Positions 5,165 to 10,708 are shown, counted from the first letter of the stretch. The stretch: 64,000 nucleotides of DNA from Christensenellaceae bacterium (GCA_948658045.1 CAPMFN010000007.1:16865-80864), one strand, 5' to 3'. Notes: generated by a model from the letters alone, not told the origin. Numbers and translations are program-made.

Positions 5165-5193
5165 TTGACGTGCAGCTTAAAATATGGTAAAAT
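5165..5193 (+). promoter_or_regulatory. sigma-A-like promoter motif at 5' edge of orphan module 1
   Basis: TTGACG (5165-5170), a 17-nt spacer, then TAAAAT (5188-5193), with TG at 5185-5186 giving an extended -10 (TGnTAAAAT). Confidence 0.4.
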
Positions 5194-5881
5194 AATCTAC
5201 GACCCTGAAACGGGCAGATTTATTTCGCAAGATTTAACCGAATACGCCGACCCCGAAGCAATAAACGGCTTAAACCTCTACGCATACTGCGGTAATAACC
5301 CCGTAATGAACGTAGACCCTACGGGGAGAATAGGTTTAACTTTTATTTTAGTTTCAATGCTAATTGGGGCTATAATTGGTGGTGTTTCAGCTGGCGTTAA
5401 AGCAAGTGATGATGGATTAGATGCCAAGGGTATAGCTTTAGCAGTATTAGGTGGTGTTATTTTAGGGGCAGCCGTTTCAGGTTCTTTTGCCCTTGGTGGA
5501 GGAGCGGTCTCAGGTTTAACAATATTAGGAAAAACTGTTTCAGGGTTTGCTTTATTTGCAACTGCGACAATTGGTACAGCTTTGGCTAGCTCAGCTGAAT
5601 ATTGTCTTACTGAACTTGCATATGGAAAAACTCCTAATTTGGAAGGAACATTAATGAGCGGCGTTAAAGGAGCTTTTCAAGGTATGTTTTCTTTTGGTTT
5701 CGGTGCTTTGGCTGGATTAAATGGTAATTTTAAATACGCTGATAAAAGTTTGTTCAATGATACGGGATATTTATTTAAATTACCAAAAGAATCGATAATT
5801 AGATACATTGGATATTCTTTTCCGTCTACAATTATTCGTGGATTATTTGATAAAATATTTCACAAAAATTGGGGGATATAA
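5165..5881 (+). CDS. orphan RHS-tip + glycine-zipper membrane toxin domain (module 1)
   Basis: YDPETGRFISQDLTEYADPEAINGLNLYAYCGNNPVMNVDPTG is homologous to 4193-4320 of the main gene. It is followed by a Gly/Ala-rich hydrophobic region with GxxxG motifs (GAIIGGVSAG, GGVILGAAVSG). The only possible start is the TTG of the -35-like hexamer, and it has no SD. Confidence 0.7.
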   Translation: MTCSLKYGKIIYDPETGRFISQDLTEYADPEAINGLNLYAYCGNNPVMNVDPTGRIGLTFILVSMLIGAIIGGVSAGVKASDDGLDAKGIALAVLGGVILGAAVSGSFALGGGAVSGLTILGKTVSGFALFATATIGTALASSAEYCLTELAYGKTPNLEGTLMSGVKGAFQGMFSFGFGALAGLNGNFKYADKSLFNDTGYLFKLPKESIIRYIGYSFPSTIIRGLFDKIFHKNWGI

Positions 5882-6308
5882 GTGTATAAAAAAATTAGGA
5901 TAAATTTAAATATTATAAAATGGTGTTTAACTTGTTGCTTATTATTAGGAAATTTATTACTATTAGCTAAAAACGATGACAAATTATTTATAATAATTTA
6001 TGAAATTTCAATTAATGTTTTAGCAATTGGTTCATTTATATTGTTGTCATTTTTCCCTCGAATATATTATATTTTCGATGAGTATGGGATTTCTTATCAA
6101 AACAAAAAAGGTAAAGAATATTTGCATATAAGTTGGCAAAATATTGTAGATATTTCATATATATATATTAGGTTTTATTCCAGATGGATTAGAAATAAAA
6201 TGGCAAATACAAGGTAAATTGAATAAGTACACGTTAACAATATCACGTAAACAATCAAAAGAAGTATTTAAATTATTTGCTCAATATATAGATTTTTTAA
6301 ATAAATAA
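5882..6308 (+). pseudogene. module-1 immunity candidate (TM hairpin + small domain), apparently frameshifted
   Basis: A GTG directly follows the toxin stop. The annotated frame ends at 6217, but the +1 frame continues as PDGLEIKWQIQGKLNKYTLTISRKQSKEVFKLFAQYIDFLNK to TAA 6306-6308. That continuation parallels the C-terminus of the module-2 immunity ORF (PGRLEIYLKD..YTKTFLIRIKYKDYHNLPEIY). The shift lies at or just after the (AT)6 tract at 6157-6168. Confidence 0.45.
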
Positions 6309-6310
6309 TA

Positions 6311-6346
6311 AAAAGAATGCTGCTAAATTTAGCAGCATTCTTTTTA
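6311..6346 (+). terminator. intrinsic terminator of module 1
   Basis: Perfect palindrome GAATGCTGCTAAA/TTTAGCAGCATTC (6315-6340) followed by TTTTT. Confidence 0.75.
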
Positions 6347-6362
6347 TTATTTAGCCACAAAT

Positions 6363-7880
6363 ATGCCGTCCGTAATCTGGTACGCAAGCGGCGAGGATAT
6401 CAAAGACAACATAAAGTATAAGTACGACAAAAGCGGCAACATCTGCGAAATAACTGAAAACGGACATATTGTTGCAAAGTATGCCTACGACGGGTTAAAC
6501 CGTCTTGTCCGCGAAGACAATAAGCCGCTGAATAAAACCGTGCTTTACAGCTATGATAATTGCGGCAATATAACCGAACGCTGTGAATACGCGTACACGA
6601 GGAAGAGCGGCGAAGAACTTACCGAACAGGCCTGCACGCATTTTGCATACGAATACGACGGCGACAGGCTTGTAAGCTATAACGGCGAGAAATGCGCGTA
6701 CAATAATTTGGGCAGTCCTACAACCTATCGCGATAAACAAGCGCAATGGCAGTTTGGAACAAGGTTAAGGAGTTTAGGCGCCGCCGCTTTTAATTACGAC
6801 GGCTTCGGCAGAAGAAGTCAAAAGAACGGTATAGAATATACCTATGACAGCGACGGAAGACTTATAAAACAAAGCGACGGTCTTGAATTTGTCTACGACA
6901 ATAAAGAAGTTACGGGTATAATTTATAACGAAAAGCAGTACTTCTACCGCAGGGATATACAGGGCAATATAATAGCCATACTTGACGAAAGAGGCGCAGT
7001 TGTGGTAAGATATATCTACGACGCATGGGGCAACCACGCCGTGGTTGACGTAAATGGAAACGATGTTGAAAGCGGAATAGGAGTATTAAATCCGTTCAGA
7101 TATCGCGGCTACTATTACGACGCAGAAACAGGCTTGTACTATTTGCAAACCCGTTATTACGACCCCGAAACAGGCAGGTTTATCTCTCAGGACAGCATAG
7201 AATACGCCGCCCCCGAAGCCGTAAACGGACTGAACCTCTACGCATACTGTTTAAATAATCCTGTTATGATGACCGATGAAACAGGAACTATGCCCGAATG
7301 GTTAAAATGGGTTTTAGGAATATTAATTATTGTTGTGGCGGTAGGCTTATCAATTGTTACAATGGGTTTAGCTACGCCTATATCTGCAGCATTAGGCGGA
7401 GGTTTAGCTGGTGCTATACTTGGAGGTGCTGTTGCTGGTGCAATTGGTGGGGCAATTGCTGGCTTTGGTATAAGCGTTGGGTTGCAAGGTATTTCAAAAG
7501 GTTTTGAAAATATTGATTGGAAACAAGTTGGGTTTGATACTTTAAGTGGAGCGGTTTCAGGTGCAATAGCAGGTGGTTTATTTGGGGGGTTACAACATGT
7601 AGCAAGTGCAAGCAAAGTAGCTAGCGGTTTATCCGGTTTAGCAAATGCACAAAACAATTTTAATAAAGCATCTTTCGCTTTACAATTTACTCCAATTAAA
7701 ATTTCTGGAGGAGTAATGGCAACTGATAGAATTGCTGCTCAACTGAGTTTTGATGTTGCAAGTGCTAGATTAGGTGCAGTAAAAAGTGTCGCAAACGCTA
7801 TTGAATTTATTTTGAATCAAATTTATAAGATAGCCCGATTTGGCGTAAAACAATTAATAAACAATACAATAAAAGGTTGA
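6363..7880 (+). CDS. long orphan RHS C-terminal fragment + glycine-zipper toxin domain (module 2)
   Basis: The first ~300 aa are YD repeats nearly identical to main-gene residues encoded at 3399-4290, and the ATG corresponds to an internal Met of the main gene. After the tip ...NGLNLYAYCLNNPVMMTDETG comes GGGLAGAILGGAVAGAIGGAIAGFG and a further ~150 aa. No SD is visible. Confidence 0.8.
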   Translation: MPSVIWYASGEDIKDNIKYKYDKSGNICEITENGHIVAKYAYDGLNRLVREDNKPLNKTVLYSYDNCGNITERCEYAYTRKSGEELTEQACTHFAYEYDGDRLVSYNGEKCAYNNLGSPTTYRDKQAQWQFGTRLRSLGAAAFNYDGFGRRSQKNGIEYTYDSDGRLIKQSDGLEFVYDNKEVTGIIYNEKQYFYRRDIQGNIIAILDERGAVVVRYIYDAWGNHAVVDVNGNDVESGIGVLNPFRYRGYYYDAETGLYYLQTRYYDPETGRFISQDSIEYAAPEAVNGLNLYAYCLNNPVMMTDETGTMPEWLKWVLGILIIVVAVGLSIVTMGLATPISAALGGGLAGAILGGAVAGAIGGAIAGFGISVGLQGISKGFENIDWKQVGFDTLSGAVSGAIAGGLFGGLQHVASASKVASGLSGLANAQNNFNKASFALQFTPIKISGGVMATDRIAAQLSFDVASARLGAVKSVANAIEFILNQIYKIARFGVKQLINNTIKG

Positions 7881-10102: not shown

Positions 10103-10116
10103 TAAGGAGATGTTTA

Positions 10117-10638
10117 ATGAAAAAAATAATTAAAAAGAAATATATAGTAATTTTGGTTTTATGTTTATTATTAATTGCCATATCGCTTTTTATTGGATAC
10201 GGTGTTCCTAGAATAGGTAAGCAGTCTTATACAGAAGACAAAACTTATGAATATACAGCTACATTTAAATCAAAAGAAAAACATAATGAAAGTTATATTG
10301 TTTACCTCAATAATAATTTTTCTTTAATATTTAATTCTGCGTCAATAATAAATGAAACGAGGTTTAATAATTTAAAATATGGAGAAAAAATAACTTTCAG
10401 AAGTGTATATAATTTTGATAAATCGAACCATAAAGAGTATCCCGTAGATATCGTATCTCTAAAAACCGAAGATGCGGAAATAGTTACATTAGAAAGCTCT
10501 AAGAATACAGTTACGCAAGGTGAGATAGAAATAGCAGTTACAGCAACAGTATTTTCAATATTCTTTTTAATCGGAGGTATAGTTTGTGTTTTATATCTTT
10601 TTGGAGTTCTACCAAAAAAGAAAAAATTAAATAACTAA
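10117..10638 (+). CDS. module-4 immunity candidate (N- and C-terminal TM helices flanking a ~110-aa domain)
   Basis: An AAGGAG RBS lies 7 nt before the ATG. The product has an N-terminal TM (IVILVLCLLLIAISLFIGYG) and a C-terminal TM followed by KKKKLNN. Confidence 0.55.
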   Translation: MKKIIKKKYIVILVLCLLLIAISLFIGYGVPRIGKQSYTEDKTYEYTATFKSKEKHNESYIVYLNNNFSLIFNSASIINETRFNNLKYGEKITFRSVYNFDKSNHKEYPVDIVSLKTEDAEIVTLESSKNTVTQGEIEIAVTATVFSIFFLIGGIVCVLYLFGVLPKKKKLNN

Positions 10639-10642
10639 AACG

Positions 10643-10672
10643 AAAAGAGGGGTAACGTTACCCCTCTTTTTT
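10643..10672 (+). terminator. intrinsic terminator of module 4
   Basis: GAGGGGTAA-CG-TTACCCCTC followed by TTTTTT. Confidence 0.75.
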
Positions 10673-10678
10673 CAATAA

Positions 10679-10708
10679 TTGACGCACGGCTTAAATATGT
10701 GGTACAAT
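10679..10708 (+). promoter_or_regulatory. sigma-A-like promoter motif at 5' edge of orphan module 5
   Basis: TTGACG (10679-10684), an 18-nt spacer, then TACAAT (10703-10708), with TGg upstream of the -10. Confidence 0.35.

What the first reader, a model, noticed from the sequence alone, without database searches (positions are those of the whole stretch)
5165..10708. Each short orphan module starts with a conserved near-consensus promoter embedded where RHS coding sequence should be
Seen in the sequence:
- Right after the terminator of the preceding unit, modules 1, 3, 4 and 5 begin with TTGACG-N17/18-TGgTA(A/C)AAT.
- The four sites are 5165-5193, 8291-8320, 9467-9495 and 10679-10708. Each has a -35 hexamer, a correct spacer and an extended -10.
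- In modules 1 and 4 the TTG of the -35 is the only possible start codon, and it has no Shine-Dalgarno.
- In module 3 a 1-nt longer spacer puts TAA 8304-8306 in frame. In module 5, TAA 10692-10694 does the same.
- So the reading frame is not conserved, but the hexamer geometry is.
- The motif replaces the sequence that encodes LYYLQTRY at the equivalent place of the main gene, so it is not RHS coding sequence.

Inference: every orphan module is an autonomous transcription unit (promoter, toxin tip, immunity gene, terminator). This would keep orphan immunity genes expressed. It might also allow production of stand-alone small membrane toxins from the internal Met of PVMNVDP.

I am not aware of this being a described feature of rhs orphan arrays.
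Basis: partly seen in the sequence, partly recalled or inferred. Interest (0 to 1): 0.72.

Follow-up and report, generated by a model that had tools for sequence, protein, structure and literature searches.

The report
Own promoter on each rhs cassette
Each spare toxin-immunity cassette behind this gut bacterium's rhs toxin gene starts with what looks like its own standard promoter, probably to keep the immunity genes on; the same principle has been shown experimentally in Salmonella and E. coli.

Summary
TTGACG-N17/18-TGGTA(A/C)AAT occurs exactly four times in the window, at the stated coordinates, against 0 expected. Each copy lies 5-10 nt after a terminator hairpin and directly before the codons for Y|DPETGRF.

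They lie inside coding sequence, in the main gene (4018-4047) and in long orphan module 2 (6982-7011), so every module has one.

In relatives (Christensenellales-like gut Clostridia; 92 loci scanned) the same arrangement is embedded in the penultimate YD repeat of almost every rhs core. The synonymous sites that build the hexamers are nearly fixed there, while the same amino acids elsewhere use mixed codons. About 30 of 39 unique short orphans start 0-22 nt upstream of the -35. Copies with a broken frame or a drifted spacer keep the hexamers, the spacing and the TG.

The window's non-coding version recurs in front of three different downstream contexts.

Best reading: a sigma-A-type promoter transcribes core remnant, toxin tip and immunity gene of each module. 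No transcript data were available.

Internal rhs promoters shared by main and orphan copies are already known in Salmonella (PMC7043789) and EHEC (PMC7618764). This is therefore a new variant, not a new principle. The idea of a stand-alone toxin made from the internal Met is unsupported.

The parts
45..4811 (+). Main rhs gene, 3' part. The frame is open to the window start, so the 5' end lies outside the window.
   Evidence: ORF. RHS_repeat PF05593, E 7e-21. Rhs_assc_core TIGR03696 starts at nt 4053.
4018..4047 (+). Promoter-like element embedded in the penultimate YD repeat of the main gene (LLDENGAVVVRY): TTGACG-N18-TAAGAT with TG.
   Evidence: The same position carries it in 13 of 14 related main genes. 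Synonymous sites are fixed there.
4813..5046 (+). Candidate immunity gene of the main module (77 aa, hydrophobic). SD GGGGG at 4803-4807, start TTG 4813.
   Evidence: Sequence read; ORF. No Pfam hit. The immunity role is inferred from position only.
5127..5158 (+). Terminator hairpin closing the main module.
   Evidence: fold -19.1 kcal/mol, z -7.4.
5165..5193 (+). Module 1 promoter: TTGACG-N17-TAAAAT with extended -10 TATGG. Predicted transcription start about 5200.
5198..5881 (+). Module 1 core remnant (5198-5324 matches main 4194-4321 at 86%) plus Gly-rich hydrophobic tip. No SD or start codon lies downstream of the predicted transcription start apart from the Met of PVMNVDP.
   Evidence: TIGR03696 profile positions 32-75 only.
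5882..6217 (+). Module 1 candidate immunity gene. SD GGGGG at 5871-5875, start GTG 5882.
   Evidence: The same 111-aa ORF occurs in strain contig L095.
6302..6353 (.). Perfect 24-bp palindromic hairpin, a bidirectional terminator closing module 1.
   Evidence: fold -30.6 kcal/mol, z -11.2.
6354..7880 (+). Module 2, a long orphan. 6354-7269 matches main 3390-4305 at 88%; a different tip follows.
   Evidence: TIGR03696 and YD_repeat hits.
6982..7011 (+). Embedded promoter-like element of module 2 (ILDERGAVVVRY): TTGACG-N18-TAAGAT with TG.
7884..8192 (+). Module 2 candidate immunity gene (102 aa).
   Evidence: No Pfam hit.
8249..8280 (+). Hairpin closing module 2.
   Evidence: Fold -24.2 kcal/mol, z -9.0.
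8291..8320 (+). Module 3 promoter: TTGACG-N18-TAAAAT with TATGG. An in-frame TGA and TAA lie inside it.
8324..8969 (+). Module 3 core remnant (8324-8451 matches main 4193-4321 at 90%) plus tip.
8959..9426 (+). Module 3 candidate immunity gene (155 aa, two TM segments). SD GAGGGA at 8948-8953, start TTG 8959.
9430..9461 (+). Terminator hairpin closing module 3.
   Evidence: Fold -15.6 kcal/mol, z -6.2.
9467..9495 (+). Module 4 promoter: TTGACG-N17-TAAAAT with TATGG.
   Evidence: In L093 the identical element, with the same preceding terminator, precedes a different tip at 2119 and a gene that is not rhs at 3470.
9499..10102 (+). Module 4 core remnant (9499-9549 matches main at 94%) plus tip. 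The motif reads NNPIKYVDFSG, with no Met.
10117..10638 (+). Module 4 candidate immunity gene (173 aa). SD AAGGAG at 10104-10109, start ATG 10117.
10642..10671 (+). Terminator hairpin closing module 4.
   Evidence: Fold -19 kcal/mol, z -5.6.
10679..10708 (+). Module 5 promoter: TTGACG-N18-TACAAT with TGTGG.
10710..11122 (+). Module 5, a truncated copy of module 3's core remnant and tip with no immunity gene. It is cut where the terminator of tRNA-Arg begins.
   Evidence: 96% identity, 10679-11122 = 8291-8734. tRNA at 11158-11234 on the minus strand.

Best explanation
The motif is a housekeeping (sigma-A / sigma-70 type) promoter with an extended -10. There is one per toxin-immunity module.

Where it comes from. 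In this rhs family the promoter is normally written into the coding sequence of the penultimate YD repeat of the core. The codons are chosen so that L/I-D gives TTGAC and V-V-K-Y gives TGgTAaAAT. That puts it about 180 nt upstream of the D of DPxxGRF. In the four short orphans of this window a non-coding descendant of it sits directly in front of Y|DPETGRF. Its spacer has drifted to AT-rich sequence and its reading frame is not maintained.

What it does. Transcription would start about 7 nt after the -10. That start is downstream of the TTG that ORF finders take as the start codon. It would run through the core remnant, the tip and the immunity gene to the module's terminator. Only the immunity genes have a Shine-Dalgarno and a start codon. 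The likely product is therefore immunity protein, made independently of the long main rhs transcript. This would keep both current and displaced (orphan) immunities expressed.

Basis. Shown: the anatomy, the conservation pattern and the clustering of orphan boundaries. Inferred: promoter activity, the transcription start, and immunity as the selected product.
For: 1. Geometry. There are four exact sites against 0 expected, plus two embedded copies, so one per module. In the whole window the strict pattern with TG occurs 8 times, 6 of them in the modules.

2. The host clade uses this promoter type.
- tRNA-Arg in the window has TTGACA-17-TATAAT.
- L007 has TTGACA-N14-TATGGTAAAAT 36 nt before its SHMT gene.
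- Across 0.9 Mb of loci there are 153 strict hits. 110 lie in rhs YD or DP contexts. The others I inspected looked like ordinary intergenic promoters, though only a few were checked against neighbouring genes.

3. Synonymous constraint, measured in 55 non-redundant coding copies.
- Leu: CTT 39/39, against mixed Leu codons in other columns.
- Asp: GAC 49/50, against GAC 22 and GAT 33 at the next YD.
- The two Val codons: GTG 43/46 and GTA 49/51.
- The -10 codon: AAA 21 against AAG 1, CAA 7/0 (elsewhere CAG 43 and CAA 6), GAA 11/0, AGA 9/0.
- Fisher p ranges from 3e-9 to 1e-28, against the same amino acids in flanking columns.

4. Specificity. Among 135 YxYD motifs in 14 main genes, the arrangement occurs only at -173 to -188 nt. 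It is there in 13 of 14 genes.

5. Orphan boundaries. About 30 of 39 unique short orphans begin 0-22 nt upstream of the -35, four of them exactly at TTGAC. Eight more, whose computed boundary falls inside a drifted spacer, still carry a TTGAC at the promoter position.

6. Copies with a broken frame keep TTGAC, a 17-18 nt spacer and TGnTAnAAT: L046, L051, L056, L067, L086, L003 11589, L016 12119 and L028 9979.

7. Independent cases.
- The L008 main gene lacks the motif. Its four orphans carry a non-coding TTGACA-N17-(TGT)GATAAT right after their terminators, at other entry points into the core.
- L007 12009 has TTGACA-N17-TAAAAT before an orphan that starts at YLQTRYY.

8. The window's own relic occurs before three different downstream contexts: Y|DPETGRF, a partial YD repeat (L096), and a small membrane-protein gene with no rhs sequence (L093 3470).

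9. The immunity ORFs have an SD and a start codon. The tip ORFs do not.

10. Precedent. Internal promoters of main and orphan rhs were mapped in Salmonella and EHEC.
Against: - No transcript ends, reporter data or metatranscriptome reads were available. Promoter activity is inferred from sequence alone.
- The short-type junction was found only in this species' lineage (window, L093-L096). A junction-specific scan of metagenome contigs found none. The four window copies are paralogues, and modules 3 and 5 are near-duplicates.
- The sequences compared are phylogenetically related, so the Fisher p-values are not literal probabilities. Only the contrast with flanking columns is robust.
- A 600-870 nt leader without an obvious translated ORF ahead of the immunity gene is unusual. 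It could be subject to polarity.
- A few orphans lack any such motif: L048, L069, L038 and L035.
- The embedded copies in this window have the weaker -10, TAAGAT.
Confidence: 0.72

Rival explanations
1. The promoter is real, but its selected product is the toxin tip together with the immunity protein made inside the cell. That would be a type II toxin-antitoxin-like addiction module that stabilises each cassette, as reported for Salmonella rhs main and orphan CT/I pairs. The first reader's 'stand-alone small membrane toxin' is a version of this.
For: - In Salmonella the internal P2 transcripts give toxic protein from a CTG start, and the pairs behave as TA modules.
- EHEC RhsFint is translated from the internal transcript.
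- Here the predicted start of the short orphans lies about 100 nt upstream of the PxxxxDPxG codons. In Salmonella the distance is 89 nt.
- One related orphan (L038) has AAGGAGG-N2-GTG at its start.
- A long untranslated leader would be odd.
Against: - No SD or canonical start codon lies in frame between the predicted start and the tip in modules 1, 3, 4 and 5.
- The only ATG is the Met of the PVM motif. It is conserved as a core residue in 14 of 14 main genes, and module 4 lacks it.
- The in-frame GTG at codon +8 of the main-type transcript is not codon-constrained: GTG 31, GTA 10, GTT 3.
- In L093 the same promoter precedes a small membrane-protein gene with no tip at all.
Confidence: 0.15
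2. The motif has no function. It is a relic of YD-repeat coding sequence that happens to resemble a promoter. It was copied along with the modules by duplication and recombination, so its 'conservation' only reflects recent common ancestry.
For: - The amino-acid pattern LDxxGxVVVKYxYD is ordinary YD-repeat consensus and can read as TTGAC..TAAAAT.
- The window copies are paralogues, and modules 3 and 5 are 96% identical.
- The short type was found in one lineage only.
Against: - Synonymous sites are fixed only at hexamer and TG positions. Spacer codons and flanking codons vary in the same sequences.
- Only 1 of about 10 YxYD repeats per gene carries the motif, always the same one.
- Among the window's four copies the first six spacer bases all vary (TGCAGC, CACCGT, CACAAC, CACGGC). 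By contrast, 13 of the 14 -35, TG and -10 positions are invariant.
- Copies with broken frames and indels keep a 17-18 nt spacing.
- Where the embedded copy is lost, non-coding replacements appear (L008).
Confidence: 0.08
3. The conserved element is a recombination feature, either a target of a site-specific recombinase or the edge of the homology 'handle' used to shuffle cassettes. It is not a promoter.
For: - Orphan 5' boundaries cluster at the element.
- Strain variants show the same junction joined to different tips (L093 against the window). Cassettes therefore do recombine in or near this region.
Against: - The conserved positions are exactly those of a -35, a TG and a -10 at 17-18 nt, not a dyad or a core-type site.
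- The stretch between the hexamers is free to vary.
- No recombinase gene flanks the array downstream. The neighbours are tRNA-Arg, an ORF of unknown function, an M20 peptidase and a histidine kinase.
- Homologous exchange can use the 50-130 nt core remnant downstream of the element.
Confidence: 0.05

Closest known systems
Salmonella Typhimurium rhs internal promoters P2A and P2B (Starsta et al. 2020, PLoS Genet, PMC7043789)
   Same: The promoter lies in a conserved part of the rhs core and is present in both the main gene and the orphan. It sits upstream of the PxxxxDPxGL codons. It transcribes the CT and the immunity gene independently of the full-length gene. P2-like sequences occur next to different toxins in many genomes.
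   Different: - Salmonella is a Gram-negative with T6SS-linked Rhs.
- The transcription start there is 89 nt upstream of the motif codons. In the main genes here it is about 240 nt upstream, in the preceding YD repeat, so the position is not homologous.
- No extended -10 is described there.
- Function there was shown by 5'-RACE, reporters and toxicity tests, and was read as TA-like. Here nothing has been tested experimentally.
- Here a non-coding copy of the promoter heads minimal orphans that keep only about 40 core codons.
EHEC rhsF and rhsG sub-genic transcription (Nucleic Acids Res 2025, PMC7618764)
   Same: An internal transcription start upstream of the autoprotease site uncouples the CT and immunity gene from expression of the full-length effector.
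   Different: It was defined by dRNA-seq in E. coli. The products have been repurposed (RhsFI binds RNA). There is no tandem array of minimal cassettes.
rhs orphan arrays and C-terminal displacement (Jackson 2009, Poole 2011, Koskiniemi 2014; cited from my own knowledge)
   Same: A main rhs gene is followed by fragments that keep the 3' end of the core plus a variable tip and an immunity gene. The shared core segment allows recombination.
   Different: That model treats orphans as silent fragments that lack initiation signals. Here each fragment carries a promoter-like element and a terminator.
Constitutive immunity promoters inside toxin operons: the E-type colicin imm promoter within the colicin gene, and internal promoters for Vibrio cholerae T6SS immunity genes (my own knowledge; not checked here)
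   Same: The logic is the same: immunity is transcribed from a promoter buried in or behind the toxin gene, so cells stay immune when the toxin gene is off.
   Different: The genes are unrelated and are not repeated per cassette. No promoter there is written into a conserved structural repeat.

Membership tests
rhs orphan toxin-immunity module | Homology to the 3' end of the rhs core, including the Rhs_assc_core domain and the PxxxxDPxG motif. | tested here: met
   TIGR03696 hits on modules 1, 2 and 4. blastn to main 4192-4321 for modules 1, 3, 4 and 5. The motif reads PVMNVDPTG, or PIKYVDFSG in module 4.
rhs orphan toxin-immunity module | [quoted passage not shown] | tested here: met
   The main ORF is 45-4811 with RHS repeats. 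The modules keep 17-305 core codons.
rhs orphan toxin-immunity module | The variable tip is a toxin, and the small downstream ORF is its cognate immunity protein. | not testable with these tools
   No Pfam family for any tip or downstream ORF. The roles are inferred from position and architecture.
sigma-70 / sigma-A promoter with extended -10 | -35 close to TTGACA, -10 close to TATAAT, spacer of 17 +/- 1 nt. | tested here: met
   TTGACG; TAAAAT or TACAAT; spacers 17, 18, 17, 18; 10 of 12 consensus positions.
sigma-70 / sigma-A promoter with extended -10 | TG at -15/-14 (the TRTG '-16 region' typical of Gram-positive promoters; my own knowledge). | tested here: met
   TATGG or TGTGG lies before the -10 in all six copies. 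The same form occurs at housekeeping promoters of relatives.
sigma-70 / sigma-A promoter with extended -10 | A primary transcript 5' end about 7 nt downstream of the -10; activity in vivo or in vitro. | not testable with these tools
   No transcript data were available.
sigma-70 / sigma-A promoter with extended -10 | Purifying selection on hexamer positions rather than on codons. | tested here: met
   Synonymous-site fixation. Copies with broken frames keep the hexamers.
Salmonella-type internal rhs promoter (P2) | Lies in the conserved core upstream of the PxxxxDPxGL codons and is present in both main and orphan copies. | tested here: met
   4018-4047 (main), 6982-7011 (module 2) and the four short orphans.
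Salmonella-type internal rhs promoter (P2) | Same position (transcription start 89 nt upstream of the motif codons), or sequence homology to P2. | tested here: not met
   In the main-type copies the predicted start is about 242 nt upstream (about 4054 against the P codon at 4296), in a different YD repeat. The short type is about 100 nt upstream, but only because the intervening core sequence is missing. Sequence homology to P2 itself was not tested, because no Salmonella sequence was on hand.
Salmonella-type internal rhs promoter (P2) | The internal transcript is translated into toxic CT protein (TA-like behaviour). | tested here: inconclusive
   No SD or start codon was found downstream of the predicted starts. 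Non-canonical initiation cannot be excluded.

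The most novel reading that the evidence does not exclude
The promoter-bearing YD repeat has two jobs. It is the expression signal for each cassette, and it marks the upstream edge of the homology handle by which cassettes are exchanged. Selection for promoter function would then keep the DNA identity that recombination needs. It would also define a minimal mobile unit: promoter, short core handle, tip, immunity gene and terminator. That unit can be reduced further to promoter plus immunity gene only, as L093 3470 suggests. This would amount to a self-expressing cassette system in Gram-positive gut commensals, possibly with TA-like addiction through low-level internal toxin synthesis.
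Probability: 0.2. Interest if true: 0.65.

Novelty: new variant of a known kind. Interest (0 to 1): 0.47.

Why it matters
Orphan rhs modules are usually described as silent spare parts. Two questions follow: how are their immunity genes kept useful, and why are the arrays retained?

Work in Salmonella and EHEC showed that internal promoters can express orphan CT/immunity pairs. This locus suggests the same logic holds in a distant phylum of uncultured gut Clostridia, and it shows a clear evolutionary signature:
- a promoter written into a structural repeat through codon choice;
- orphans trimmed down to that promoter;
- non-coding copies of the promoter where the coding copy is gone.

The signature gives a sequence-only way to predict which orphan cassettes are expressed. 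It also gives precise mutations for testing the idea: synonymous changes in two hexamers.

For annotation, ORFs called from the TTG in the -35 (MTHNLKYGKII...) or from the GTG in the extended -10 (MVKYVYDAWGN...) are probably artefacts.

Tried and rejected
- A scan of metagenome contigs for the short-type junction (TAATNTAMGAYCCNGARACNGGNAG) gave 0 hits. Homologous short junctions therefore came only from four ENA contigs of the same lineage, found through the protein search.\n- Pfam on all tips and candidate immunity proteins gave no family.\n- Rfam on 3800-11400 gave only the tRNA. The other matches were far below their gathering scores.\n- BLASTP of the small membrane protein behind the L093 3470 promoter against the window's candidate immunity proteins gave E = 0.11 and 0.15, which is not significant. 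I call it 'immunity-like' on architecture only.\n- I first thought the short-type motif arose from a simple YD-to-YD deletion, fusing the embedded promoter's ..YIYD to DPETGRF. L096 complicates this. There the same non-coding relic sits upstream of a partial YD repeat. The relic is therefore a separate portable element. Its descent from the embedded promoter is plausible (shared TTGACG, an ACGGC stretch, TGTGGTAA), but it is not proven.\n- The codon-bias-only explanation was rejected by the internal controls.\n- The recombinase-site explanation found no supporting gene.\n- A literature search for Christensenellales plus Rhs found nothing.

Full report
**1. Observation**

The pattern TTGACG-N14-16-TGGTAMAAT occurs four times in the 64-kb window. 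All four are on the + strand, at 5165-5193, 8291-8320, 9467-9495 and 10679-10708. One hundred dinucleotide shuffles gave none.
- Spacers are 17, 18, 17 and 18 nt. The -10 is TAAAAT three times and TACAAT once. All have TG at -15/-14.
- Each site follows a strong hairpin plus T-run by 5-10 nt.
- Each site abuts TACGAYCCNGAAAC, the codons for Y|DPETGRF. Homology to the main rhs gene begins there, at main 4192-4194.

**2.

The consensus scan also reports TTGACG-N18-TAAGAT with TG at 4018-4047, inside the main gene, and at 6982-7011, inside long orphan module 2. Both encode the penultimate YD repeat..(A/L)LDExGAVVVRYIYDAWGN. Every one of the six modules therefore has one promoter-like element upstream of its tip. 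In the whole window the strict pattern with TG occurs 8 times on both strands, and 6 of those are in the modules.

**3. Relatives**

A protein-based scan of species-representative genomes returned 34 loci. They come from Christensenellales-like gut Clostridia (labelled Christensenella sp., Borkfalkia, Gallimonas). A metagenome scan anchored only on the codons for YDAWGNHA, and so blind to the upstream sequence, returned 58 more loci.

In almost all of them the DNA upstream of YDAWG reads (C/A)TTGAC(A/G)-N18-TA(A/C/G)(A/G)AT. It is preceded by (T)GTGG.

*Codon choice.* In 55 non-redundant copies (<93% identity) whose frame is intact, codon choice is nearly fixed at exactly the synonymous sites that build the hexamers and the TG.

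| Codon | At the promoter position | Elsewhere in the same sequences |
|---|---|---|
| Leu | CTT 39/39 | CTT 4 of 33 in another Leu column |
| Asp | GAC 49/50 | GAC 22, GAT 33 at the next YD |
| Val (first) | GTG 43/46 | GTT 25, GTG 6, GTA 4, GTC 4 one codon upstream |
| Val (second) | GTA 49/51 | as above |
| Third -10 codon, Lys | AAA 21, AAG 1 | AAA 23, AAG 20 |
| Third -10 codon, Gln | CAA 7, CAG 0 | CAG 43, CAA 6 |
| Third -10 codon, Glu | GAA 11, GAG 0 | not tabulated |
| Third -10 codon, Arg | AGA 9 of 9 | not tabulated |

The third -10 codon ends in A whatever the amino acid. Fisher tests against the same amino acids in flanking columns give p from 3e-9 to 1e-28. The sequences are related, so these are not literal probabilities, but the flanking columns share the same phylogeny. 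The spacer codons vary freely.

*Specificity.* Across 14 main genes with 135 YxYD motifs, the arrangement occurs only at -173 to -188 nt from the D of DPxxGRF. It is there in 13 of 14 genes. Only three other relaxed matches occur anywhere in about 70 kb of core sequence.

**4. Orphan boundaries**

A change-point analysis covered 39 unique orphans whose in-frame ORF ends within 50 codons of the anchor. For about 30 of them the start of homology falls 0-22 nt upstream of the -35, and for four it falls exactly at TTGAC.

For eight more, the computed boundary falls inside the spacer, which has drifted or gained an indel. These still have TTGAC at a 17-nt spacing and TGnTAnAAT, although their frames contain stops. 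They are L046, L051, L056, L067, L086, L003 11589, L016 12119 and L028 9979.

Gene callers start many such orphans at the GTG inside the extended -10, giving MVKYVYDAWGN.. (P0002, P0003, P0009, P0013, P0014).

**5. Independent replacements**

- The L008 main gene has lost the motif (CTTAAT..GTGGTGAAGTAT). Its four orphans enter the core at other points. Each carries a non-coding TTGACA-N17-(TGT)GATAAT or similar element directly after the preceding terminator.
- L007 12009 has TTGACA-N17-TAAAAT, with TATGA, about 25 nt before an orphan that starts at YLQTRYY.

**6. The window's own non-coding version**

It was found again only in contigs of the same lineage. A junction-specific scan of metagenome contigs found none.

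In those contigs the element precedes three different things:
- Y|DPETGRF joined to a different tip. At L093 2119 the preceding terminator is identical to that of module 4 in the window.
- A longer core remnant that begins inside the spacer of the embedded promoter. L096 21-50 is followed by ..GGCGGAGTTGTGGTAAGATATATCTACGACGCATGGGG.
- About 75 nt of unrelated sequence and then a small two-TM protein gene, with no rhs sequence at all (L093 3470).

The element therefore behaves as a self-contained portable unit. It is plausibly descended from the embedded promoter: they share TTGACG, an ACGGC stretch and TGTGGTAA. That descent is an inference.

**7. Host promoter usage**

- tRNA-Arg in the window is preceded by a perfect TTGACA-17-TATAAT.
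- In L007 a TTGACA-N14-TATGGTAAAAT element lies 36 nt upstream of the SHMT gene. Its extended -10 is the same as in the orphans.
- Of the 43 strict-pattern hits outside rhs in 0.9 Mb, those I inspected looked like ordinary intergenic promoters. Only a few were checked against neighbouring genes.

**8. Mechanism**

Transcription from these elements would start about 7 nt after the -10. The TTG that opens ORFs 5165..5881 and 9467..10102 is the -35 itself, so it would not be in the RNA.

Downstream of the predicted starts, the tip frame has no SD and no canonical start codon. The one exception is the Met of the conserved PVM motif. That Met is invariant in 14 of 14 main genes as a core residue, and module 4 lacks it.

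Each candidate immunity ORF does have an SD and a start codon:
- main module: GGGGG-N5-TTG 4813
- module 1: GGGGG-N6-GTG 5882
- module 3: GAGGGA-N5-TTG 8959
- module 4: AAGGAG-N7-ATG 10117

The most economical reading is immunity expression that is independent of the main rhs promoter. It would apply to the current module and to the displaced ones. A TA-like role with low-level internal toxin synthesis, as in Salmonella, cannot be excluded.

**9. Comparison with what is known**

*Salmonella.* Starsta et al. 2020 (PMC7043789) mapped transcription starts P2A and P2B in a conserved region of both the main and the orphan rhs. The starts lie 89 nt upstream of the PxxxxDPxGL codons. They showed activity with reporters and 5'-RACE, and found P2-like sequences next to many different toxins.

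*EHEC.* A 2025 NAR paper (PMC7618764) shows equivalent sub-genic starts in rhsF and rhsG.

The principle is therefore known. The differences here are:
- The phylum is different, and the promoter is a Gram-positive type with an extended -10.
- The position is different: it lies one YD repeat further upstream, with the start about 242 nt from the motif codons in main-type copies.
- The evolutionary pattern is new: orphans trimmed to the promoter, and non-coding copies heading minimal cassettes.

No paper in the searchable library links Christensenellales and Rhs.

**10. Context**

The window is chromosomal, with rpoB and rpoC at 32705-40469. No recombinase gene lies next to the array. Tips and candidate immunity proteins match no Pfam family. 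No Rfam family matches the region apart from the tRNA.

**11. Verdict**

The promoter interpretation is well supported by comparative evidence but untested by transcript data. The claims that the motif is 'not RHS coding sequence' and 'not described' need correcting. The stand-alone toxin idea is unsupported. This is a new variant of a known kind, of moderate interest.

Noticed in passing
window 10679-11122 and 11121-11234: Module 5 is a 96% identical copy of module 3 (8291-8734). It breaks off at 11122, exactly where the terminator hairpin of the minus-strand tRNA-Arg(ACG) gene begins. It has no immunity gene. The array therefore ends against a tRNA gene.
   Followed up: partly
window 11298-11326 (- strand): A perfect consensus promoter, TTGACA-17-TATAAT (12 of 12), lies upstream of tRNA-Arg. 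It is a useful internal control showing that the host uses sigma-70-type promoters.
   Followed up: partly
L093 3320-3950: A remnant of the 3' end of a module-3-type immunity gene is followed by the same terminator and the same promoter relic. Next come about 75 nt of sequence that is not rhs, and then a small two-TM protein gene. This may be a promoter-plus-immunity-only cassette. Similarity to the window's candidate immunity proteins is not significant (E = 0.11).
   Followed up: partly
L038, minus strand, about 30 nt upstream of the YDAWG anchor at reverse-complement position 3690: This orphan lacks the promoter motif. It has AAGGAGG-N2-GTG directly before the core remnant, so it may be a translated stand-alone orphan.
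   Followed up: no
L007 4658-4984: A small ORF directly upstream of the full-length rhs gene gives a weak holin hit (PF09682, E 1.4e-4, below the Pfam cut-off). It may be relevant to how these Rhs proteins are exported.
   Followed up: no
window 22206-28553 (+): A 2115-aa ORF with no Pfam match at E <= 1e-5.
   Followed up: no
window 55456-55484 (- strand) and L006 3014: An extended -10 promoter is followed by a leader (..tgccaaacaattaaattgcagacgg..) that is conserved between the window and L006. It lies upstream of the 376-aa ORF at 54081-55211. It may be a regulatory leader.
   Followed up: no
window 6302-6353: A perfect 24-bp palindrome with a 4-nt loop lies between module 1 and module 2. 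It would act as a terminator in both directions. Module 2 starts right after it with no non-coding promoter of its own, because its promoter is the embedded one at 6982.
   Followed up: partly
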